36,108 bases of DNA from Methanobacteriota archaeon (lineage in GTDB: Archaea > Thermoplasmatota > Poseidoniia > Poseidoniales > Poseidoniaceae): the NCBI GenBank assembly GCA_018650165.1, contig JABIGM010000019.1:1-36108 (forward strand), given 5' to 3'. The position numbers were made by a program, and so were the translations under genes. The notes under the pieces were generated by a model that did not search any database, was not told the DNA's origin, and was given only the letters and a program-made list of their open reading frames with translations. Positions 1,909 through 22,859 of the stretch are shown here, piece after piece. Each line of letters begins with the position of its first letter. The first letter of the stretch is position 1.

Positions 1909-1932
1909 TTATATGGCCCGGGTAGGTCGGCA
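1909..1932 (+). promoter_or_regulatory. Putative rpl21e promoter: TATA box plus GTCGGCA element
   Basis: TTATATGG (1909-1916), 9 nt, GTCGGCA (1926-1932); preceded by GC-rich CGCGG. Confidence 0.6.
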
Positions 1933-6727: not shown

Positions 6728-9700
6728 TTACTCTTCTTGAGTTGATTTTGTTTTAGGTTCAATTATCCCTAATGCTGCAGTGGTTAGTACCATTGATGCG
6801 ATTAGCGACAAGACAATCATCATTGCAGAGAATAATCCAAAGGTATTGAATAATCCCATTGATGAAGTAGCGATAATTGAAAATCCAGCGACATCCGAAA
6901 TCGCTGAACCAACTAAAGCAAGAGCACATGCGCCACCAACTCCATGTAAGGCTTGGCGATGATTGCCACCCTTTTCTCTACCTTCGCGATATCGTTCGGT
7001 AACATGTATACAATAATCGATACCTACGCCAAGAGATATCGTGGCAATAGTTACAGTTACAATATTTAGAGAATAACCAAATGCATAAATCAATCCATAG
7101 AGCCAAACAACAACCAATAGAATCGGTGTTAGGGACACAATTGCTTGCTTAACAGAGCGGAAACCAATAGAGAGTGTGATTAGAACAAACAACGAACCAA
7201 GCAATAGAGATGATTGCATTTCAGATTGCATTTTATCACTCGCAACGAATCTTGTAATCGGTTTACCAGTAAGCATTACCCATGTCAAAGGCTTATCATC
7301 TTCCGATGCCCCCTCTTCTTCCCAAGTACCCGATGAGAGATTTAGAAGAGGCCCTAAATCACTCTTGATTTTATCTATACCAGGACCCATTGATGGAAAA
7401 TCATCGGGAGAGGTTATTCCAAATCTAATCAGCATCATATCATAAGAAATATTCTTCCCACTTTCAGATAGCCATACTCGCTCAGGATCTGGAGTTTCAC
7501 TTGGTGCAATATACAAATCAATTAGAGATGAAGGTATTTCAGTGCCTGGAACTCCATCTAGTGTCAAAACCCCATAGAAGAATACAATACAATCTCTATC
7601 ATCTAAGTTTGGAGCATTTAGGATACCGATTTGTTCACAACCGGATTCATTGAAACCATGCCCCCAAAAAGGCTCAGGATTGCTCACCATCGACGCCGAT
7701 GCATAAATTACAAATTCATCAATGGCAAGAATATCGACCTTTCCATCAGGCTGTCTGGTCATTTTATCTATACCGCCGTCTAATCCTTTGTCTGCATTTT
7801 GCCTAAAGTCATCAATTGCTCTAAATACCTCAGGGTCGGCAACATCTCCCTCAATCAAGAGCATAGCAGGCTCTCCTTCATCGGAGAACCGTTCATTGAC
7901 CATATCGACTCCAAAGGCAAAATCTGAATCTTCATCAAGGAAATCATCAACGGAAAATTCCCCTTCTAAATTCACCATGCCCCAGGCGGCAGGAATTGTC
8001 AACAGAAGGCAGATTCCTGCAATAATTATTGGTCGAGATCCTGTGCCTGATTTTATTGCAATCTTTTGTAACATGTCGGTTCGAATGATATTACGTTTGA
8101 TTTTAGGAGAAGAATTCTTTCCTCTCTTTTCCAGCCATTCATCAAATGAGATACGAAGCAATGGCGCCCATATACCGGTCAATAAGAACGCTGCTAATAT
8201 TCCAAGACCAGCCTCAAGTCCGAACGACCTCAAAGCTGCAACATCACTGAAAAGATTAGCGCCAAATGCCGCCATAGTAGTAAGGCTAGTCAATATGATT
8301 GCCCGCCCAACTCTGTTGACAGTTATGCGGCCTGCACTTTGCGGAGAATTTCCTAAATTACGTTCTTCTTTGTAACGATGTAAAGCATGTAATGAATCAT
8401 CAATTCCAAGTGCTAGTACAAGAATTGGCAAAAGATTAGAGAACTGAGAACGAGAGATTAAGTCAATCCCTAACCAGCCTAAAAGAGAGGCAGAATGGCC
8501 GATTAGTCCCTGCATCCACAATAGTGCACCACCAAGTGATAAAGACACAATTGCAACATCCGACCATCGTCTTAGTGATGCATATAATAGAAAAATAATT
8601 GCAATACCCATACCGAAAATCAAGCCTCCAGAATTTTGTAATTCACGATTGACTTCTACATTTACTGCTTGTCCAACAACTAGAGTTAACGAATTATTAT
8701 CATGGCTGCGCAGGCTTCCTTCAAGATGCATTACAGACCATTCCAATGAACACATATTGTCAAGACCCAAGCAATATTCCGAGGTATATTCGGGAGGTTG
8801 TAGGACTAATTCCATACCATCTAAGCGGTAACCTCCAATCACCAAACCATCATCTGTGAATGAGATTTCTTTTTCAGGGTGAGCATCTTTCCAAATAGTG
8901 GTCCAACCAACCTCTTCCAAAGCAGCCCGATCTAGTTGAACCAATAGCCATGAAGCCGATGCAGACCAACGACCAGGTCCCGGTTCAGCATTCCTCCAAG
9001 TACCATCTTCATTCAGAGCACCACCGATTGGCCCTCCTACAATACCGGTATTTTCCGATGCTTTGACAAATCCTCTATCCAATGACAGCCATCTCAAGAA
9101 AGCAGAACCATTTGCTGCCGCCATTCTACTTGCCGCCAAATCAATATGTGCTTGAGTCAAATCTTCATCTTCAAATGTAAGGCATTCGAGTATACCACAA
9201 TCATCCCAATTTGTTTGGGCTGGCTCTAGTCCTGCTAAGGTCATCGTGGGATGTGTTAGAATCGATTCATTGGCCATAAAGCCACGGAAAATATCTGCAA
9301 GACTCATAACACCTGAAGTTTGTAAACCGGTTACATCATTGATGAACGGTTTGGTATAGTTACCAAGGGCATGGTCGTGAACTATCTGATGCTTTGATTG
9401 AATTTCTCGTAAAATAGTAAGATTCAGAATGCCGCCATCGGTATCTGTAATTCCAACCCATTCTTCTCCTGCATCAATTGCTTCATCAGCAGGGGGGAGG
9501 CTAGACCAATCTGGTGTTCCATCTTCGAGTAGTGGTACTGGGACTGGCGTGGAACCAACTGCTGCAGGGTCTCGTACGCTTACAACAAATCCAAGGATGA
9601 TTTCAGTGGTAGCAAATTCATCATTGATTTTACGCTCTGCGGTAAGTTCTGGCGATTCCATATCATACGATTCCATATCGATTGGTTCTAGTGCCTTTAG

Positions 9701-9799
9701 AGCACCAGGAATCATCAAGATAGTGAGGATAAAAACGGCTAAGTGCACCTTATTTCGGCGTGAAACTAGGACCTTTGATAGGGCTTCGAACTCAGCCAT
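6728..9799 (-). CDS. MMPL/RND family exporter
   Basis: Two repeats of TM + large extracytoplasmic loop + 5 TM, with GIDDSLH and GVGIDYCIH motifs. Confidence 0.9.
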   Translation of the reverse strand: MAEFEALSKVLVSRRNKVHLAVFILTILMIPGALKALEPIDMESYDMESPELTAERKINDEFATTEIILGFVVSVRDPAAVGSTPVPVPLLEDGTPDWSSLPPADEAIDAGEEWVGITDTDGGILNLTILREIQSKHQIVHDHALGNYTKPFINDVTGLQTSGVMSLADIFRGFMANESILTHPTMTLAGLEPAQTNWDDCGILECLTFEDEDLTQAHIDLAASRMAAANGSAFLRWLSLDRGFVKASENTGIVGGPIGGALNEDGTWRNAEPGPGRWSASASWLLVQLDRAALEEVGWTTIWKDAHPEKEISFTDDGLVIGGYRLDGMELVLQPPEYTSEYCLGLDNMCSLEWSVMHLEGSLRSHDNNSLTLVVGQAVNVEVNRELQNSGGLIFGMGIAIIFLLYASLRRWSDVAIVSLSLGGALLWMQGLIGHSASLLGWLGIDLISRSQFSNLLPILVLALGIDDSLHALHRYKEERNLGNSPQSAGRITVNRVGRAIILTSLTTMAAFGANLFSDVAALRSFGLEAGLGILAAFLLTGIWAPLLRISFDEWLEKRGKNSSPKIKRNIIRTDMLQKIAIKSGTGSRPIIIAGICLLLTIPAAWGMVNLEGEFSVDDFLDEDSDFAFGVDMVNERFSDEGEPAMLLIEGDVADPEVFRAIDDFRQNADKGLDGGIDKMTRQPDGKVDILAIDEFVIYASASMVSNPEPFWGHGFNESGCEQIGILNAPNLDDRDCIVFFYGVLTLDGVPGTEIPSSLIDLYIAPSETPDPERVWLSESGKNISYDMMLIRFGITSPDDFPSMGPGIDKIKSDLGPLLNLSSGTWEEEGASEDDKPLTWVMLTGKPITRFVASDKMQSEMQSSLLLGSLFVLITLSIGFRSVKQAIVSLTPILLVVVWLYGLIYAFGYSLNIVTVTIATISLGVGIDYCIHVTERYREGREKGGNHRQALHGVGGACALALVGSAISDVAGFSIIATSSMGLFNTFGLFSAMMIVLSLIASMVLTTAALGIIEPKTKSTQEE

Positions 9800-9868
9800 T
9801 GTTTACCCCCCTATCTTCTTGTTATTGAACAGTTGTATTCATTTGTGTGATATGTGACGCAGGTTTGG

Positions 9869-9952
9869 GCGGGGGTCGCCCAGCTTGGTCAACGGCGGTG
9901 GGTTTAGGTCCCATTTCTTATTGATTCGCAGGTTCGAATCCTGCCCCCCGCA
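9869..9952 (+). tRNA. tRNA-Leu (anticodon TAG)
   Basis: Acceptor GCGGGGG/CCCCCGC, anticodon arm GTGGG-TTTAGGT-CCCAT, long variable arm, T arm GCAGG-TTCGAAT-CCTGC, discriminator A; CCA not encoded. Confidence 0.95.
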
Positions 9953-10053
9953 TCTCTTTTAGCATCTCTTTCATTCTTGGTAAGTTTGTATTGTGAATAA
10001 TTTACAACTTAGTAATAGGTACATACATAGTGTAGTCCTTTCTCCCTAAATTT

Positions 10054-10590
<537 letters not shown>

Positions 10591-12669
10591 TCAAACAGGA
10601 GATAGGTCAAGAGCTCCTGACCAAATATCAAGGCCTCTAAGTCTGCAGTCAAACCGTTGACCAAGTTCTAAAACCGAACTACCATTTTCTCTCTCAACTT
10701 TCAGCCCATATTGATCGATCATCAAGCGTTCCTTACCACCCAACTGGCTCAAATGCATACGTCCTTCAAACGAACCATCATCTTCGAGATCCAAATATAT
10801 CCATGGGCTACGAAGACCTACCACTCTCGCATTCCAAGTCGAACCTTCTTCAGTATTGATTAGGTGCATGTTACAAGTACTTGCAACTAATTCCCATTCG
10901 AGTTTCTTAGCTTGCCTAGAACGGGTCGAGCAATGTTCTGAAATTTCTTCGACTTCTTCGAATGTATGGGTCCAGTCTTTACTTTCAAGCAATGATTTCA
11001 ACTGACGATGGGCCACTAGGTCTGGATACCTTCGTATAGGGGATGTGAAATGGACATAGGCATCCAAATCGAGACCAAAATGTCCAATATTTTCTTCACT
11101 GTAAATCGCCCTTTGCATTAATTGAAATAGCCCCTGATCTACAACCCGGCGCTTAATCTCAGAGAGTTCTGATGCTGCTGATTGGGCATTTCTCAAAGCC
11201 TGTAGCATTTCTGAGCGAGCCTGAGAATCAACAACACTTGAGAGATAGTTACCATCTATGACTTCAACAGTCTCTTCATTATCAAAAGATAGGCCGGCAT
11301 CAGCCCAAGCAGAAAGCAAATTCATTGTTTCAGTAGTTTCAGTCTCCCCGGTTTTTCTATGCGATGGCATTGGCAATTCAATATCCACATCTAAGCACTC
11401 TAGTTTAGCATTTAGAGATTCAACCTCGGGAGAATCCGGTGGCGAATGACATCTCCATGGTAGTGCGGATTCAGCATCTCCCAATAGATGTCCAACCGCT
11501 TCATTCGTTGCAACCATAAAAGCCTCAATCATTTCAGTAGCCTCATTTGGCCATTTCACTTCAAGAGTTATTTCATCCCCATTAATCCGAGGACGCCTTT
11601 CCGCTCCAGCGATGTCAAGACCGATTCTTTTTGCCCGCATCATTTTTGATAACTTCATCATTTCAGGGAATAGATTTCCTTCAATGACATCATCATATGA
11701 CAAATTTTGTTTTACACGGATTAGTGCTTGGTGCGCCTTGGTCGACACTACCCTTGCCTCATTAATTTTCATTTCAATAACCATTGCGTATCTATCGGCA
11801 TCATCTCTCAACGAACATAAATCATCAGCTAAACGTGGAGGCAGCATTGGAAGTACACAATGAGGAAGATATACGCTTGTAGCCCTTTCTCTGGCATATC
11901 TGTCAAGTGATGTATCGGGCTTGACATAGTGAGCAACATCTGCAATGGCGACCCATAATGTATCTTCAATAAGGCATACAGCATCATCAAAATCTCTTGC
12001 ATCAGGAGGATCAATTGTAGTGAATGGTATGTGTCGTAAATCAACTCTATTCTCTGACATCACAGGTTCGGGTAATTTCGCTGCAAATTCGATTAAATCA
12101 TCTCGATATATTCTCGGAAATGGGTTTGTCCCCATCTTTGTTCGATAAGCCAATCTAGCATCTAACATTTCTTCTGGAGTGAAACTGTCACGCATTAGCC
12201 ATGCCATAGATACCAGTGGGTCTGGGAATCGTAGTTTGGCTTCAGATTTCGCAACTTTCTCTAATTGTTTTGTCATATCAAAGCCAAGATATGTTCGCAA
12301 CACCTCCCCCTCCAATAATGAGAAATCATCAGGGAGACTCTCTCCCCTCAAAGTTGCAAGCATCGCACCTTCGTGTAATTGGTGTTGTGATGTCCTTACC
12401 GCTGCTTCAATTTCCTCTCTTTGTTGGGTCGAACGCAAAGAGAAATCATTTGTATCTCCAATAAACAATTCACCTTTTCGACAAGCATGTACAATAGTTT
12501 CTTGAATCTGAGAGTGTAATTGTTTTTCAGTTAATTTAAGATTAGATTCTTTCGATAAGATTGTACTAAGTGCCAAATCAACCGATAAGTTCCTCTCTAG
12601 ACCATGTGAAATCAATCTTCGATAAAGACGTTCATCAGGGGGACTTACCTTTCCCTTACGCCTTTTCAC
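10591..12669 (-). CDS. RNase II/R family (RNB domain) exoribonuclease with C-terminal S1 domain
   Basis: [13 protein letters not shown] (catalytic Asp cluster), [19 protein letters not shown]...[16 protein letters not shown]1-like C-terminus; GTG start overlapping the dnaJ stop. Confidence 0.92.
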
Positions 12670-13529
12670 AAACCCACGTCCTTCAATGCCTGTAAGGCAT
12701 CTATTTGTGATTTGTCAAGTTCATCAAGTTCGTCCAAAATAAATTCAATATCAATCTCTTTCACCCGTTGGCGGTCACCAACTTGCGATAATGGCGGAAT
12801 AGATATTTTCCCCTTTACACCAGAAGGAAGAGTAACAGTAACCTTCCCACCGAGAATCAATGTGGAATATGGGATTTCAACTTCTTTGATAATTCTGCCA
12901 TTATCCCAGCGGCATCCTTCGCCAGGGTCAATTCGAATATTTACGATTAAATCTCCATTAATGCCTTGAGGGTGACCATGGCCTTGGTCTTTAATGCGAA
13001 TCTCCTTGCCATGTTTTACGTTAGGATTTACTTTGACACTCAGGGTGCGACGTTTTCTATCTATACTACCGTGGCTTCCTGGAATTAATTGAGTGTATGT
13101 TAGATTGAAAGAACCACCACTGGCAGCATCTTCGGGGGAAAGGTCGAGCCATGATACAGCATTCTTCCCTCTCTCCTGAGGAGGTCGTGGAGAGTTGTGC
13201 CGTCGTTGCCCCCCGCCCATACTTTTGCCAAACATTTGACCAAGGACATCCTCCATGCCACCCATGCCACCCATGCCGCCAAAGGGGCTGCCTCTACCGC
13301 CGCCAACTCCACCAAACATCTGTTCCTGCTCATGCTTACGGCGGGCTTCAGCCGTACCGATTGAATCGTAAGCGGCTTGTACTTCTTTGAATTTCGCCTC
13401 TGCTGCGGTCGAACCATCGTTACGATCGGGGTGGAATTGCCTTGCAAGTTTGCGAAAAGACTTCTTTATTTCAGCGTCACTGGCTCCCCGTGATACACCG
13501 AGAACCTGATATGGGTCTCGCTCCGCCAT
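12666..13529 (-). CDS. DnaJ-class protein without zinc finger (class II / CbpA-like)
   Basis: J domain DPYQVLGV...FHPDRN with HPD, G/M-rich linker, C-terminal domain (GQGHG...GDLIV); no CxxCxGxG repeats. Confidence 0.9.
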
Positions 13530-13595: not shown

Positions 13596-13619
13596 TTAAA
13601 TGAGGGCCCTAAGTCGCCA
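13596..13619 (+). promoter_or_regulatory. Putative secE-spt5 promoter: TATA box plus GTCGCCA element
   Basis: TTAAATGA (13596-13603), 9 nt, GTCGCCA (13613-13619); SD GAGGTGA follows before ATG 13641. Confidence 0.6.
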
Positions 13620-13640: not shown

Positions 13641-13907
13641 ATGTCAGATGACAAGAACCAGACACGCTCCTTCGAGGACAAAGTCCAGGACAAGCAAGAT
13701 GCTATTGAAGCACAATTCCGCAAGATATCTCGCGGAAGCTGGGCTCGTATCATTCGTATGGCTCGAAAGCCTACGCCTCAGGAATTCAAACAAACATCAA
13801 TTATTTGTGGGATTGGACTATTTATCCTAGGTTTTATTGGGTTTGTAATGCTCGTACTGATGGACAATTTCATACCATGGCTTATCCATGATGTATTTGG
13901 TATCTGA
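13641..13907 (+). CDS. secE: Protein translocase SEC61 gamma / SecE
   Basis: RIIRMARKPTPQEFKQT...GIGLFILGFIGF matches the SecE/Sec61g pattern; upstream of spt5 as in the conserved cluster. Confidence 0.92.
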   Translation: MSDDKNQTRSFEDKVQDKQDAIEAQFRKISRGSWARIIRMARKPTPQEFKQTSIICGIGLFILGFIGFVMLVLMDNFIPWLIHDVFGI

Positions 13908-13923
13908 TATTGGAGGGGAAATT

Positions 13924-14862
13924 ATGACTGACGCATTTATCGCATTTGTTCGCCACGAAGAGGAATTATTACTTCTTCATCGCTCTAAATCTGATTCAGA
14001 TTCACCAGGCCTTTGGGACGGTGTGTACGGAATTGGAGATACCGAAGAGGATGTACTTAACCGTGTAGCGGAATGTACCGGAATTCCTCTAGAGGATTTG
14101 GAATATGTTCGTGCAGGACCTGCACTTGGAATTGATATCGGAGGCCGTCTACAAGATATTGCTCCATGCCTAGTAGTATCTTCCAGTAAGGAAGTAACTC
14201 CAACAGGCCGTTACACTGAATCGATCTGGGTTGATCCGGGAAACATTGGTTGGGAAGACCGTGAAAATAACAGAACGAGACACCATGTATTCACAGATCT
14301 AGATATGGAAGGTAGCGAGAAATTGTTGCTGGAGATGTATGGTTCAGTTGCTACTTACCTTTACATCGTAAAGACTGCAATTGGTTCAGAGAAGCGCGTC
14401 GCTGATGAAATGAAAGCTCGTTTGATGGGCTCAGGCTCACTTTCAGCACTTAGCGATGATATATTCGGCATTCTTCATCCAACAGGCATGCGTGGATATG
14501 TAATCGTTGAATCCAGCGCTTCACACCATGTTGAGAAGTTAATCGGGCGTTCTGGTGGTCGTGATCCAAAGGCCCGCCGTGGACTAAATCAAACACCTCT
14601 AAAGAACGCAAAGACTGTTCTTCCAGGAGAGGCAGCACTCAAGGATATCCTACCGTACTTAGAGCCAAAGGCAGTTACCAGCGGCATAGAAGTAGGATGT
14701 ATCGTAGAGATTGTAACAGGAGCATTCAAAGGCGAAAAGGCACGTGTTACTAGTGTCGCAGAAACCAAAGAAGAAGTTAGTATGGAGTTGTATGAACAAC
14801 CTATCCCTATGACCCTAAAGATGCGTGGAGATCATGTCCGCGTCGTCGAGAGAGTCGAATGA
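13924..14862 (+). CDS. spt5: Transcription elongation factor Spt5 (NGN + KOW) fused to an N-terminal Nudix-like domain
   Basis: From about 14356: YIVKTAIGSEKRV, MRGYVIVE (NGN), GCIVEIVTGAFKGEKARV (KOW). First ~140 aa resemble a Nudix fold. GGAGGGG SD before ATG 13924. Confidence 0.9.
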   Translation: MTDAFIAFVRHEEELLLLHRSKSDSDSPGLWDGVYGIGDTEEDVLNRVAECTGIPLEDLEYVRAGPALGIDIGGRLQDIAPCLVVSSSKEVTPTGRYTESIWVDPGNIGWEDRENNRTRHHVFTDLDMEGSEKLLLEMYGSVATYLYIVKTAIGSEKRVADEMKARLMGSGSLSALSDDIFGILHPTGMRGYVIVESSASHHVEKLIGRSGGRDPKARRGLNQTPLKNAKTVLPGEAALKDILPYLEPKAVTSGIEVGCIVEIVTGAFKGEKARVTSVAETKEEVSMELYEQPIPMTLKMRGDHVRVVERVE

Positions 14863-14877: not shown

Positions 14878-14901
14878 TTAAATAGGGGAGGCAAGTCGGC
14901 A
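14878..14901 (+). promoter_or_regulatory. Putative internal promoter for rpl11: TATA box plus GTCGGCA element
   Basis: TTAAATAG (14878-14885), 9 nt, GTCGGCA (14895-14901); GC-rich GCGCGGCGCG upstream in the BRE position. Confidence 0.6.
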
Positions 14902-14940: not shown

Positions 14941-15222
14941 ATGCCAAAGCCTTGGACCAGCCATCTTATCATAAAAGCGCTAGGTGTCAAGAAATGCAAT
15001 GGTAGTCTGGATGCCGCTACTGAGGACTTGAGCCTCGAAAAAGCGATGGACGTCGCTCGCCAAAAGCACAACGACGGCCACTTGACTGGAGCAGACCTGA
15101 AAGCGCAGACCCGTGAGGTCATCGGCACATGTGTGTCAATGCGTGTTAAGATCGATGGACTCTGGGCCAAGGACGCTCTGACCACAATTGAAAAAGGAGA
15201 ATGGGACGAACGATTTGCTTGA
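14941..15222 (+). CDS. rpl11: 50S ribosomal protein L11, C-terminal (rRNA-binding) domain only
   Basis: P.TSHLIIKALGVKK, LSLEKAMDVARQK, DLKAQTREVIGTCVSMRVKIDG, IEKGEWDE match the uL11 CTD; position between spt5 and rpl1; GAGGTG SD. Confidence 0.85.
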   Translation: MPKPWTSHLIIKALGVKKCNGSLDAATEDLSLEKAMDVARQKHNDGHLTGADLKAQTREVIGTCVSMRVKIDGLWAKDALTTIEKGEWDERFA

Positions 15223-20767: not shown

Positions 20768-21694
20768 ATGGCGACTGGGTGGGTTATCGATCATCCAGCG
20801 CACGCTCGGCTATTTGCGCCGCTAATGCGTGAGTTATCTTCGACCGATGACATCATCATAGCATGCGATAGAATCGAAGTAAGGGCAATGCTCGAGAATT
20901 GCGATGGACATATGCCTCGTAGACGAATTGTATGGGTGCCACGCCCGGTTGGAAAGGGGCGTTGGCGTAAGGCATGGAAACGCAGGAAGATATCTGGCAA
21001 AGCTCTGAAGGGAGTAGACAAAGTGGTAAGCGTAGGCGCACCGATTGAATTGAGGGCAGCGCCACGTAAAGCAAAACGCATCTACATCACAGATACCGAA
21101 GTAAACCATCTTGCTCATAGATTAGCAAAACCAACAGATATCATAATCCCAACCCATTTTATCGATTCTCTATCTGGTCCACTGATGAATAAGAAAGCAA
21201 AATTTCACAGAATAGATGGCTTGCATGGGCACATTCACCTAAGGCCACAATTGCGTTCGAAAGAGGTAAGAGAACCACCCAAAGTATTGGTGAGAAGATT
21301 GCTTGGAGATGGGATTCATGATAGCGATGAGATATTATCCATTCCTGAAAACTGGTTCGAAGGATTGACAATTCACTATGCTGATGAAAATGAAGTAGAA
21401 GGTAATCCGTGGGATTTAGATCGCACAATTGCCGGCATGGATGGAGTCATTACACAATCGGTAACTATGGCTAGTGAGGCAGTATTACTAGGTTTACCAA
21501 CCCTACTAGTGACCAAAGCAGTACGAGGTTTTATCGACAGGCTAATCGAGGATGGCTATCCATTATTCGTAGTTCGCGAACATGATGAGTCCATTCTAGC
21601 TGCATGGCTCGCAGGTATGCATTTAACAGATGCCATCGAGGTTCCAGATTGGCCAGATACTAAGTCAGAAATGCTTGATTTTATCAAGCATTGA
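20768..21694 (+). CDS. DUF354 family GT-B fold putative glycosyltransferase
   Basis: N-terminal WVIDHPAHARLF resembles DUF354 (WID...PHVHFF); C-terminal TMASEAVLLGLPT resembles GT-B donor-binding motif. ATG 20768 preferred over the track start inside ridA. Confidence 0.72.
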   Translation: MATGWVIDHPAHARLFAPLMRELSSTDDIIIACDRIEVRAMLENCDGHMPRRRIVWVPRPVGKGRWRKAWKRRKISGKALKGVDKVVSVGAPIELRAAPRKAKRIYITDTEVNHLAHRLAKPTDIIIPTHFIDSLSGPLMNKKAKFHRIDGLHGHIHLRPQLRSKEVREPPKVLVRRLLGDGIHDSDEILSIPENWFEGLTIHYADENEVEGNPWDLDRTIAGMDGVITQSVTMASEAVLLGLPTLLVTKAVRGFIDRLIEDGYPLFVVREHDESILAAWLAGMHLTDAIEVPDWPDTKSEMLDFIKH

Positions 21695-22087
21695 CATATG
21701 GTCTCCAGCTAAACTCTCTACTTCAGAAATCCGATACCAAGCTGCACTTGCAGCGTCATCCCCAGCAATGGGTTCTTCAAATGCAGCTACAAGATAAGCA
21801 ATTGAAACAATATGGCCCCGAGGGTCCCTTTTTGGGTCCCCCTTTACACAAAGTAATCTGACAACCTTGCCATCAATCCCGCACTCTTCTTTGAGTTCAC
21901 GAATGACAGCAACCTCAGGGTCTTCATCAGACTCGACAAAACCTCCTGGAAAAGCAAGCATTCCTTTCCAAGGCTCATTCTTTCGTCGAATTAGAAGGAC
22001 TTCATCGCCTCGGATAGCGATGGCATCTACTGCTAAAGAGGGTTGAGGCCATTGGCCACAATCATCACAAGCAGCCAAATCACTCAC
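21665..22087 (-). CDS. Nudix hydrolase (ADP-ribose pyrophosphatase/MutT-like)
   Basis: Intact Nudix box GGFVESDEDPEVAVIRELKEECGI, DPKRDPRGH, AGDDA; GTG 22087 overlaps the uppS stop. Confidence 0.9.
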   Translation of the reverse strand: MSDLAACDDCGQWPQPSLAVDAIAIRGDEVLLIRRKNEPWKGMLAFPGGFVESDEDPEVAVIRELKEECGIDGKVVRLLCVKGDPKRDPRGHIVSIAYLVAAFEEPIAGDDAASAAWYRISEVESLAGDHMSMLDKIKHF

Positions 22088-22859
22088 CAAACCTACGCTT
22101 GCGTGCTTGATATGTCTGAATCGCTTTGAGCAATTCTTTTTTAGAAAATGATGGCCAAAATACATCAGTAAAATATAATTCACTATATGCCATTTGCCAA
22201 AGTAAAAAGTTTGAGATGCGCTCTTCCCCTGAGGTCCGAATGACGAGATCCGGATCTGGCATTTCAGCAGTGTAAAGTCTGCGACTAACTTCTTCTTCAT
22301 CGATTGATTCGAGTGGTAGTTTTCCAGAGCAATGGTCCTCTGCAATACTTTTTATCGCTGCTAACATCTCTTCACGACTGCCATAAGCAAGACAAATTGT
22401 GAACGTATAGTCCTCGTATTCCGAGGTTTTATTTTCCGCATAATCGATTGCCTCATTTACTGAATCTGGCAATAATTCACGCCTACCAATTATCTGAACC
22501 TTAACACGATTTTCGTGAATTCGAGGGTCATCGGCAATATCTCTTAATCCCTCAATATAGAGTTTGAATAGTCCATCTAGTTCATCGATTTGGCGACTTA
22601 GATTTTCAGTTGATAACGCATAGACAGTAAAATATTTAATTTCCAATTCCATTACCCAATCAAGCACTTGTTCGAGTTTCATTTTGCCCATCTTATGGCC
22701 AATATCAGTTTCCAAAGCTTTGGACCAAGCGAATCTTCGATTGCCATCCATAATAATTGCAAGGTGGTTGACTTTTACTGGATGTTTGATTACGTTTCGC
22801 AATAATTTTGCCTCAACAGCATTACCAAGAACATCTCCGAGGCGGTTGCTAATACCCAT
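22080..22859 (-). CDS. uppS: cis-polyprenyl diphosphate synthase (UppS family)
   Basis: HLAIIMDGNRR, YALSTENL, AYGSREE, PDPDLVIRTSGEERISNFLLWQMAYSELYF, RRFG. Confidence 0.96.
   Translation of the reverse strand: MGISNRLGDVLGNAVEAKLLRNVIKHPVKVNHLAIIMDGNRRFAWSKALETDIGHKMGKMKLEQVLDWVMELEIKYFTVYALSTENLSRQIDELDGLFKLYIEGLRDIADDPRIHENRVKVQIIGRRELLPDSVNEAIDYAENKTSEYEDYTFTICLAYGSREEMLAAIKSIAEDHCSGKLPLESIDEEEVSRRLYTAEMPDPDLVIRTSGEERISNFLLWQMAYSELYFTDVFWPSFSKKELLKAIQTYQARKRRFGE

What the first reader, a model, noticed from the sequence alone, without database searches (positions are those of the whole stretch)
13924..14862. Spt5 fused to an N-terminal Nudix-like domain with a degenerate catalytic box
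Archaeal Spt5 is normally about 150 aa (NGN+KOW). Here one uninterrupted 312-aa frame places about 140 aa in front of NGN. That part reads like a Nudix fold (AFVRHEEELLLLHRS...PGLWDGVYG), but the box GVYGIGDTEEDVLNRVAECTGI (14020-14085) has lost most of the GX5EX7REUXEEXGU residues (RE becomes NR, EE becomes EC). The intact Nudix at 21665-22087 is an internal comparison. NGN also has a basic insert (GRSGGRDPKARRG). Inference: a pseudo-Nudix riding on the elongating polymerase could sense nucleotides, alarmones or non-canonical RNA 5' caps (NAD, Ap4A) and link them to elongation. I know of no description of this fusion.
Basis: partly seen in the sequence, partly recalled or inferred. Interest (0 to 1): 0.82.

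Follow-up and report, generated by a model that had tools for sequence, protein, structure and literature searches.

The report
Spt5 carrying a dead Nudix domain
In this Marine Group II ocean archaeon, and in every family sampled in its order, the only copy of the universal transcription elongation factor Spt5 carries an extra N-terminal domain: a former Nudix hydrolase that has lost its catalytic glutamates and joins Spt5 right beside its RNA-polymerase-binding surface, so it probably binds something there rather than cutting it.

Summary
Window 13924-14862 (+) is one 312-aa gene in the usual secE-spt5-rpl11 cluster. Residues 146-311 are a normal archaeal Spt5 (NGN plus KOW).

Residues 1-142 are a real Nudix fold. 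The AlphaFold model has pLDDT 84. Foldseek gives 440 PDB matches, and all those listed are Nudix proteins. VIA Z is 12-14.

The domain descends from an active Nudix subfamily, known either alone or fused to IF-2B domains. Three of that subfamily's four invariant glutamates are replaced in all 27 sequences aligned. One is replaced by an invariant arginine (R47).

The fusion occurs in 150 of 151 sampled genomes of the order and is always in one frame. Its ATG and Shine-Dalgarno site are conserved, and it is under purifying selection. It is the only NGN gene in the five genomes checked. The sister order has a short Spt5 and a separate active Nudix.

The function is untested. My best reading is a non-catalytic binding module next to the NGN surface that grips the RNA polymerase clamp.

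Six literature searches found no description. This scan has already noted the same fusion in at least 16 other Marine Group II genomes, with the same verdict. It appears alongside other changes specific to the order: a half-size uL11 and an insertion in the RpoA' dock.

The parts
13596..13619 (+). Promoter-like element (TTAAATGA-N9-GTCGCCA) upstream of secE; the likely promoter of a secE-spt5 transcript
   Evidence: The sequence was read. A regex finds the same motif at 1909, 13596 and 14878. There is none in the secE-spt5 gap or inside spt5.
13641..13907 (+). secE (88 aa), the conserved upstream neighbour of spt5
   Evidence: The ORF is listed. PF00584 SecE scores E 1.6e-4 (22.0 bits, just under the 22.7 cut-off).
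13912..13918 (+). Shine-Dalgarno-like GGAGGGG, 5 nt before the spt5 ATG
   Evidence: Seen. A GGAGG or GAGGTG-type site lies at the same distance before the aligned start codon in most of 31 loci across the order.
13924..14862 (+). Complete spt5 gene: pseudo-Nudix plus NGN plus KOW, 312 aa plus stop
   Evidence: There are 433 homologues of 287-390 aa, those with a source name called Spt5 or NusG. It is the only NGN gene in the genome.
13924..14349 (+). Non-catalytic Nudix-fold domain (aa 1-142). The core is aa 1-108, aa 109-130 is a variable low-confidence stretch, and the C-terminal helix is aa 131-142.
   Evidence: AF2 gives pLDDT 83.8 and pTM 0.79. Foldseek finds 440 PDB hits at E<=1e-3. VIA Z is 12.4-14.1 with rmsd 2.2-2.9 A. 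PF00293 scores 15.3 bits here and matches 21 of 27 relatives. Distant sequence hits are true Nudix proteins.
14020..14085 (+). Degenerate Nudix box (aa 33-54, GVYGIGDTEEDVLNRVAECTGI)
   Evidence: Column table. Active relatives have Glu in 16 of 16 sequences at positions 47, 50 and 51. The 27 Marine Group II sequences have R47 (27 of 27), E50 (23 of 27) and C/A/S/V at 51.
14062..14064 (+). Codon of R47, an invariant arginine at the position of the first metal-binding glutamate
14209..14214 (+). Codons of R96 and Y97. Position 96 is an invariant Glu in active relatives and is lost here. Y97 is invariant in the order.
   Evidence: position 96 is E in 16 of 16 active relatives against R/L/I/V here. 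Y97 is present in 27 of 27.
14359..14544 (+). NGN domain core, with the RNA-polymerase-binding depression (I148, Y192, I194) and the Spt4-contact Glu (E196)
   Evidence: PF03439 scores 37-39 bits. Alignment to M. jannaschii Spt5 4zn1 maps A4, Y42, L44 and E46. The mutagenesis is in PMC2896526.
14548..14595 (+). Basic insert in NGN (aa 209-224, RSGGRDPKARRGLNQT), predicted disordered
   Evidence: It appears as gaps against Pyrococcus and Thermococcus Spt5. It is 9 aa shorter in families f2 and f3. pLDDT is below 50 for aa 200-250.
14701..14778 (+). KOW motif (aa 260-285)
   Evidence: PF00467 scores 17.6-19.5 bits. The region is strongly aligned to the solved Spt5 KOW domains.
14878..14901 (+). 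Promoter-like element (TTAAATAG-N9-GTCGGCA) before rpl11, marking the end of the secE-spt5 unit

Best explanation
Shown: this is the sole Spt5 of a Marine Group II archaeon. An ancestor of the order fused a gene from an active Nudix subfamily onto the N-terminus of Spt5. That subfamily is otherwise found alone or fused to IF-2B-like domains. The domain kept its fold but lost three of the subfamily's four invariant glutamates, one of them to an invariant arginine, so it cannot use the normal two-metal Nudix chemistry. It has since been inherited vertically under purifying selection. The NGN and KOW parts keep the residues that bind the RNA polymerase clamp coiled-coil and Spt4, and Spt4 is still encoded. 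Inferred: the domain's last helix (aa 131-142) runs straight into NGN strand 1. That strand carries I148, the counterpart of M. jannaschii A4 in the polymerase-binding depression. The domain must therefore ride on the elongation complex right beside the clamp contact. I think it most likely works as a non-catalytic binding module, in the way the NrtR Nudix domain does. Its remodelled former active-site cleft (R10, R20, W31, D32, R47, Y97, W102, D104) would hold a phosphate-bearing small ligand without metal. Occupancy would then change how, or how tightly, NGN engages the polymerase, tying elongation to a metabolic signal. The identity of the ligand is unknown.
For: The fusion is real and universal in the order: 150 of 151 genomes, all three families, and one frame of about 290-310 aa in nearly all of them. 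The aligned start is ATG in 30 of 31 loci and TTG in one, and most have an SD-like site upstream. The internal Met138 is Leu in some members. dN/dS is about 0.08 for the Nudix core. There is one NGN gene per genome in five genomes, two of them single-contig. Nudix descent is supported. Catalytic loss, and invariant residues specific to the order at former active-site positions, are shown. The domain forms a single clade with 100/100 support on a long stem. The sister order has Spt5 without the domain and a separate active Nudix of the same subfamily. In Marine Group II genomes the best match to that enzyme is the Spt5 domain itself. Position next to the polymerase-binding depression follows and PMC2896526. 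NrtR is a precedent for a dead Nudix domain serving as an effector sensor in transcription (PMC2330246). The NrtR Nudix domain bound to ADP-ribose is among the structural neighbours (3gz8, Z 12.8).
Against: No ligand, binding pocket or interaction was tested. I had no model coordinates, so I could not check whether the invariant residues cluster in space. R47 with E50 could simply be an intra-helix salt bridge that stabilises the box without metal. Many pocket-lining residues of the active relatives are changed (S35 to Y, W77 to N/Q/V, H80 to T/A/M, F82 to I/C/V). That could mean the pocket was lost rather than re-tuned. The full-length model does not fix the orientation between the domains (pTM 0.55). 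Other polymerase modules specific to the order exist, which makes a protein-docking role about as likely.
Confidence: 0.4

Rival explanations
1. The domain is a protein-docking or structural accessory with no small ligand. The ex-enzyme fold would serve only as an acidic surface. It could contact the RNA polymerase, another polymerase module specific to the order, chromatin proteins or the ribosome. The acidic N-terminal region of eukaryotic Spt5 plays a comparable role.
For: The domain is strongly acidic: median net charge -13 and pI about 4.3, against -1 for NGN-KOW. The sister-order Spt5 already has a short acidic N-terminal tail. Marine Group II RpoA' carries insertions in the dock and clamp head that its sister order lacks. 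Earlier scan notes report further extra polymerase modules. The pocket-lining residues are heavily changed.
Against: Several order-specific invariant residues sit at former active-site positions (47, 96/97, 32) rather than being spread over the surface. No partner has been identified. The clamp coiled-coil is identical between the order and its sister, so the canonical contact did not co-evolve.
Confidence: 0.3
2. The domain binds the 5' end or a sequence of the nascent RNA. It would be an RppH/Dcp2-like or CFIm25-like RNA-binding Nudix without hydrolysis. It could hold or protect triphosphate or NAD-capped 5' ends on the elongation complex.
For: RppH, BdRppH, NudC, Nudt12 and Dcp2 are among the structural neighbours. 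CFIm25 is a known non-catalytic RNA-binding Nudix (listed in PMC3744803; its lack of catalysis is from my own knowledge). There are three invariant arginines.
Against: A net charge of about -13 is unfavourable for RNA binding. The structural neighbours cover every kind of Nudix equally, so they do not single out the RNA-acting ones. From established structures, the NGN N-terminus lies over the DNA cleft, not at the RNA exit. I did not test that here.
Confidence: 0.1
3. The domain is still a hydrolase with an atypical active site. It would act on the nucleotide pool or on RNA ends next to the polymerase.
For: E50 is kept in 23 of 27 sequences. The loop before the helix is rich in Asp and Glu (aa 39-43). 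Atypical Nudix mechanisms exist (YmfB, 4nfx, listed).
Against: Three of the subfamily's four invariant Glu residues are replaced in all 27 sequences, one by Arg. In NrtR, comparable box damage reduced activity to barely detectable (PMC2330246).
Confidence: 0.05
4. The fusion is an annotation or assembly artefact. Either two genes were wrongly joined, or translation starts only at the internal ATG 14335.
For: The internal ATG exists with GGAG directly before it. No proteomic evidence was available.
Against: The same single frame is seen in 150 of 151 independent genomes, including single-contig ones. A start codon lies at the aligned position in all 31 loci (30 ATG, one TTG), mostly with an SD-like site upstream. 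Met138 is not conserved. dN/dS is well below 1 upstream of it. There is no promoter-like element in the gap or inside the gene.
Confidence: 0.02

Closest known systems
Canonical archaeal Spt5 (NGN plus KOW; P. furiosus 3p8b/3qqc, M. jannaschii 4zn1/3lpe, T. kodakarensis 9bct)
   Same: Residues 146-311 align end to end (E 1e-18 to 1e-20). The polymerase-binding depression residues and the Spt4-contact Glu are conserved. The secE-spt5-rpl11 gene order is the same, Spt4 is encoded, and the gene is single-copy.
   Different: It has about 142 extra N-terminal residues forming a whole folded domain. Family f1 also has a basic 16-aa insert in NGN. Known archaeal Spt5 proteins start 1-3 residues before strand 1.
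[quoted passage not shown]
   Same: These are the closest sequence relatives of aa 1-140 (26-42% identity, E 1e-8 to 1e-3 against 1.8 billion proteins). They share the fold, length, the W31, G36, T52-G53, P81 and W102 framework, and the N-terminal position in fusions.
   Different: They keep the complete box (E47, E50, E51) and E96 in 16 of 16 sequences, whereas the Spt5 domain has R47, non-Glu residues at 51 and 96, and a long stem branch. Their partner domain is IF-2B-like rather than NGN. Their substrate is unknown. HVO_1934 was linked to them only by domain architecture, not by alignment.
NrtR (Nudix-related transcriptional regulators)
   Same: Both have a Nudix domain with a damaged signature fused at the N-terminus of a transcription protein. 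In NrtR it works as an effector (ADP-ribose) sensor without catalysis. The NrtR Nudix domain is a structural neighbour (3gz8, Z 12.8).
   Different: NrtR is bacterial. Its partner is a winged-helix DNA-binding domain and it acts at promoters as a repressor. Here the partner is a general elongation factor bound to the polymerase. The two are not close in sequence.
Other non-catalytic Nudix folds: CFIm25/NUDT21, MutY C-terminal domain, TRPM2 NUDT9-H
   Same: They follow the same principle: the Nudix fold is kept as a binding module (for RNA, 8-oxoG or ADP-ribose) after loss of box glutamates.
   Different: The partners and lineages are different. None is attached to Spt5 or NusG. The resemblance rests on my own knowledge plus the MUTYH C-terminal domain (7efa) appearing.
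Eukaryotic Spt5 N-terminal acidic region; RfaH autoinhibition
   Same: The eukaryotic region is an acidic N-terminal addition ahead of NGN. RfaH is a second domain that can mask the NGN polymerase-binding site.
   Different: The eukaryotic region is disordered, not a folded ex-enzyme. RfaH masks with its C-terminal KOW domain. Neither behaviour was tested here.

Membership tests
Archaeal Spt5 (NusG/Spt5 family) | NGN domain | tested here: met
   PF03439 scores 37.1-38.8 bits against a cut-off of 22.4, at aa 146-207. The genome search gives 39.7 bits.
Archaeal Spt5 (NusG/Spt5 family) | C-terminal KOW domain | tested here: met
   PF00467 scores only 17.6-19.5 bits (cut-off 22.3). However, aa 239-311 align residue by residue to the KOW of solved Spt5 proteins within matches of E 1e-19 to 1e-20.
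Archaeal Spt5 (NusG/Spt5 family) | Hydrophobic depression that binds the RNA polymerase clamp coiled-coil (M. jannaschii A4, Y42, L44) | tested here: met
   The alignment to 4zn1 gives I148, Y192 and I194, all hydrophobic or aromatic. I148 is 90% or more conserved. The role of these residues comes from PMC2896526. Binding itself was not tested.
Archaeal Spt5 (NusG/Spt5 family) | Spt4 partner and the Spt4-contact glutamate (M. jannaschii E46) | tested here: met
   E196 is invariant. Spt4 is encoded in the same genome: PF06093 scores 42.7-44.5 bits against a cut-off of 25.
Archaeal Spt5 (NusG/Spt5 family) | Conserved secE-spt5-rpl11-rpl1-rplP0 gene order and single copy | tested here: met
   gene order; one NGN gene in each of five genomes.
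Nudix superfamily (PF00293), by descent and fold | Alpha/beta/alpha Nudix fold | tested here: met
   The model has pLDDT 83.8. Foldseek finds 440 PDB hits at E<=1e-3, with Nudix enzymes at the top. VIA Z is 12.4-14.1 over 111-127 of 140 residues.
Nudix superfamily (PF00293), by descent and fold | Significant sequence match to the family profile | tested here: inconclusive
   The window's domain scores 15.3 bits (E 0.021), under the 21.1 cut-off. PF00293 matches 21 of 27 relatives at E<=1, the best at 2.4e-6. Intermediate hits at E 1e-8 to 1e-3 are true PF00293 proteins. Taken together this supports homology.
Nudix hydrolases (active enzymes) | Nudix box GX5EX7REUXEEXGU with its metal-binding glutamates | tested here: not met
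   RE has become NR and EE has become EC. Position 47 is Arg in 27 of 27 sequences, and positions 51 and 96 are never Glu. Active relatives have Glu in 16 of 16 sequences at positions 47, 50, 51 and 96.
Nudix hydrolases (active enzymes) | Pyrophosphohydrolase activity | not testable with these tools
   This needs an enzyme assay on the recombinant domain.
NrtR-type regulatory pseudo-Nudix | Nudix-like effector domain fused to a winged-helix DNA-binding domain | tested here: not met
   The C-terminal partner here is NGN plus KOW, not a wHTH. It may work like NrtR but is not a member.
NrtR-type regulatory pseudo-Nudix | Binds a metabolite effector without hydrolysing it | not testable with these tools
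   This needs ligand-binding assays.

The most novel reading that the evidence does not exclude
Spt5 in Marine Group II archaea would be a metabolite-gated general elongation factor. The ex-Nudix domain sits 4-6 residues from the NGN surface that grips the polymerase clamp. It would mask or reshape that surface until it binds a phosphoribosyl or dinucleotide signal such as PRPP, ADP-ribose, Ap4A or NAD. Global transcription processivity in some of the most abundant surface-ocean archaea would then track nutrient or stress state. This would have evolved together with the order's other rebuilt parts: the RpoA' dock domain and the half-size uL11.
Probability: 0.15. Interest if true: 0.85.

Novelty: new variant of a known kind. 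Interest (0 to 1): 0.64.

Why it matters
[quoted passage not shown] Here a whole order of very abundant, still uncultured ocean archaea obligatorily uses a version with a third, folded, ex-enzyme domain attached at the polymerase-binding end. This is a natural experiment in adding a regulatory or docking input to the core elongation factor. The protein is small and can be made recombinantly, so ligand screens and structures are feasible without culturing the organism. It also gives a clean case of an enzyme turning into a pseudo-enzyme. The origin is dated to a single event, and an active counterpart survives in the sister order.

Tried and rejected
1. Does the Nudix domain replace Spt4? Rejected. 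Spt4 is encoded in the same genome and the Spt4-contact Glu is invariant.
2. Was the domain copied from the window's own intact Nudix (21665-22345, minus strand)? Rejected. BLASTP finds no similarity (E = 52), and that protein falls on a very long branch in the tree.
3. Is there a second, canonical short Spt5 in these genomes, making this an accessory paralogue like RfaH? Rejected. There is one NGN gene in each of five genomes.
4. Does a separate active Nudix of the same subfamily persist in Marine Group II? None was found. The best match to the sister-order enzyme is the Spt5 domain itself.
5. Is the subfamily's usual IF-2B partner present in Marine Group II? It was not found in three genomes, so no link to that pathway can be drawn.
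6. Gene neighbours of the sister-order standalone Nudix are uL16/L10e, an amino-acid kinase, PCMT and a TIM-barrel protein. They give no functional clue.
7. Is there an internal promoter or start for a short product? No promoter-like element lies in the gap or in the gene, and Met138 is not conserved.
8. The exact sister group of the domain among active Nudix proteins is unresolved (a polytomy).
9. The profile search of PDB by sequence gave only marginal Nudix hits (NudC E 0.045). The fold search was needed.
10. The full-length model did not give a confident arrangement of the domains (pTM 0.55), and no coordinates were available for mapping conserved residues.
11. Six full-text literature searches found no paper describing an Spt5/NusG-Nudix protein. 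One ESM Atlas cluster of these proteins carries an automatic PF00293 label on 21% of its members, so databases partly see it.

Full report
**Anatomy**

Window 13924-14862 (+) is a single stop-free 312-aa frame. It sits 16 nt after secE (13641-13907) and before rpl11, rpl1 and rplP0, the usual archaeal cluster. GGAGGGG lies 5 nt before the ATG. A promoter-like TATA-N9-GTCGSCA element precedes secE (13596) and rpl11 (14878). None lies in the secE-spt5 gap or inside spt5. The gene is therefore probably translated from a secE-spt5 transcript.

Pfam finds NGN at aa 146-207 and KOW at aa 260-285, and nothing above threshold in aa 1-137. Solved archaeal Spt5 chains are 147-163 aa and align only to aa 146-311.

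**The C-terminal half is a normal Spt5**

Alignment to M. jannaschii Spt5 (4zn1) matches its A4, Y42 and L44 to I148, Y192 and I194. Its E46 matches the invariant E196. In M. jannaschii those three residues line the hydrophobic depression that binds the polymerase clamp coiled-coil, and E46 contacts Spt4 (PMC2896526).

Spt4 is encoded elsewhere in the genome. There is exactly one NGN gene in each of five genomes of the order, two of them assembled as a single contig. All Spt5 function in these organisms therefore passes through the fused protein.

**The N-terminal half is a Nudix fold by descent**

- A full HMMER scan of 1.84 billion representative proteins with aa 1-140 found the fused relatives first. 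It then found proteins at E 1e-8 to 1e-3 that Pfam calls NUDIX. These are either standalone (126-138 aa) or N-terminal to an IF-2B-like domain.
[quoted passage not shown] I linked it only by domain architecture.
- PF00293 scores 15.3 bits on the window's domain, under the 21.1 cut-off. It matches 21 of 27 relatives across the order, the best at E 2.4e-6.
- An AlphaFold2 model of aa 1-140 has pLDDT 83.8 and pTM 0.79.
- Foldseek gives 440 PDB matches at E<=1e-3, and all those listed are Nudix proteins. VIA-align gives Z 12.4-14.1 at rmsd 2.2-2.9 A over 111-127 residues. The matches include the ADP-ribose-bound Nudix domain of NrtR.

**The domain is catalytically dead**

I aligned 27 sequences from the order with 16 active relatives. 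The active proteins have Glu in 16 of 16 sequences at positions 47, 50, 51 and 96. The Spt5 domains have Arg at 47 (27 of 27), Glu at 50 (23 of 27), C/A/S/V at 51 and R/L/I/V at 96. The box Arg at position 46 is also lost.

The order has its own invariant residues: R10, D32, R47, G69, Y97 and D104. Several sit at former active-site positions. Pocket-lining residues of the active relatives are widely changed. The domain is strongly acidic, with median net charge -13, against -1 for NGN-KOW.

**Distribution and origin**

- The domain was found in 150 of 151 sampled genomes of the order, in all three families and 22 genera. It is almost always in a single open frame of about 290-310 aa. The one genome without it is 86% complete.
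- In 31 loci the aligned start is ATG (30) or TTG (1), mostly behind a GGAGG or GAGGTG-type site.
- Met138, the proposed internal start, is Leu in several members.
- Within the genus, dN/dS is about 0.08 for the Nudix core and 0.03 for NGN-KOW. dS is saturated, so these values are rough.
- In the sister order of the same class, Spt5 matches only from residue 142-146 onwards. It has a short acidic leader of roughly 20 residues.
- That sister order also has a separate 136-aa Nudix of the same subfamily with an intact box. Sources name it only 'NUDIX domain-containing protein'.
- In Marine Group II genomes the best match to that enzyme is the Spt5 domain itself. No IF-2B gene was found in three of these genomes.
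- In a maximum-likelihood tree the Spt5 domains form one clade with 100/100 support on a long stem (2.27 changes per site). Their internal branching follows the families. The sister group is unresolved.

This fits one fusion in the ancestor of the order, fast change after loss of catalysis, and vertical descent since.

**How it probably works**

In the full-length model (pLDDT 69.7) the last Nudix helix (aa 131-142) runs directly into NGN strand 1 (aa 144-150) without a linker. I148 in that strand lines the polymerase-binding depression. The extra domain must therefore sit next to the clamp contact when Spt5 is on the polymerase. That placement is an inference.

I see two comparably likely roles.

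- **Ligand sensor (my preferred reading).** The remodelled cleft binds a phosphate-bearing ligand without metal and tunes NGN engagement, as the dead Nudix domain of NrtR senses ADP-ribose (PMC2330246). Order-specific invariant residues sit at old active-site positions, and a Glu-to-Arg swap occupies the metal site.
- **Acidic protein-docking surface.** The polymerase of this order has its own additions that could be partners. RpoA' has an insertion of about 150 aa with four cysteines in the dock region and smaller clamp-head insertions relative to the sister order. The clamp coiled-coil is unchanged.

RNA 5'-end binding is less likely because of the negative charge. Residual catalysis is unlikely. 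An artefact is nearly excluded.

**Novelty**

Six full-text searches found no description of an Spt5/NusG-Nudix protein. Sources call these proteins simply Spt5 or NusG. One ESM Atlas cluster carries an automatic NUDIX label on 21% of its members.

This scan has already recorded the same fusion in at least 16 other Marine Group II genomes, with follow-up reports reaching the same verdict. My tests were run independently and agree. Both parts are known families, while the architecture and its position on a core factor are new: a new variant of a known kind.

Noticed in passing
window 14941-15222 (+): The rpl11 gene just downstream of spt5 encodes only the C-terminal rRNA-binding domain of uL11 (93 aa, PF00298). 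The N-terminal factor-binding domain (PF03946) was not found in this genome or in any of 57 other genomes of the order at 88% or more completeness. It was found in 13 of 13 sister-order genomes, where both domains lie in one frame right after spt5. The loss maps to the same ancestral node as the Nudix gain, so it is a single event and no statistics apply. Earlier scan reports describe it.
   Followed up: yes
own genome contig C16, about 9540-12780 (locus L054); not in the window: RpoA' (Rpo1N) is 1038-1079 aa (stop-to-stop) in three genomes of the order, against 905 aa in a sister-order genome. It has an insertion of about 150 aa with two Cys pairs between the ...NYVIRGD... and ...VERHLIDGD... 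blocks (dock region, by my recollection of Rpb1). There are also two small clamp-head insertions, and an acidic C-terminal tail in family f1. The clamp coiled-coil sequence is unchanged. Earlier scan reports describe the dock insertion.
   Followed up: partly
window 1909-1932, 13596-13619, 14878-14901: A TATA-like box, 9 nt, then GTCG(G/C)CA recurs before rpl21e(?), secE and rpl11. GTCGSCA also occurs at 149 and 7835. It is probably a lineage-specific promoter and initiator arrangement, as a first-stage note proposed.
   Followed up: partly
protein P0131 (385 aa, metagenome): A divergent relative of the fused Spt5 (46% identity in the Nudix part) has about 85 further N-terminal residues with a C2H2-like CxxC...HxxxH motif. 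Pfam does not recognise it. It could be a real extra zinc finger or a mis-called start.
   Followed up: partly
window 14248-14271 (aa 109-116): This genome and a few close relatives (the 312-aa forms) carry an 8-aa insertion (GWEDRENN) in the variable, low-confidence stretch of the Nudix domain. The 304-aa majority lacks it.
   Followed up: no
loci L033-L037 (sister-order Spt5): The sister-order Spt5 has its own different insertion in NGN, after the ...HARG motif (a Gly- and Lys-rich stretch of roughly 15 aa), and an acidic N-terminal leader of roughly 20 residues. Additions to NGN loops seem common across the class.
   Followed up: no
PMC8576121 (Haloferax volcanii interaction study): The Haloferax Nudix-IF-2B protein HVO_1934 ('aIF2Bsu') was co-isolated once with the polymerase subunit RpoB2 as bait, in one direction only. 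This is a weak lead that the ancestral subfamily may already associate with the polymerase.
   Followed up: no
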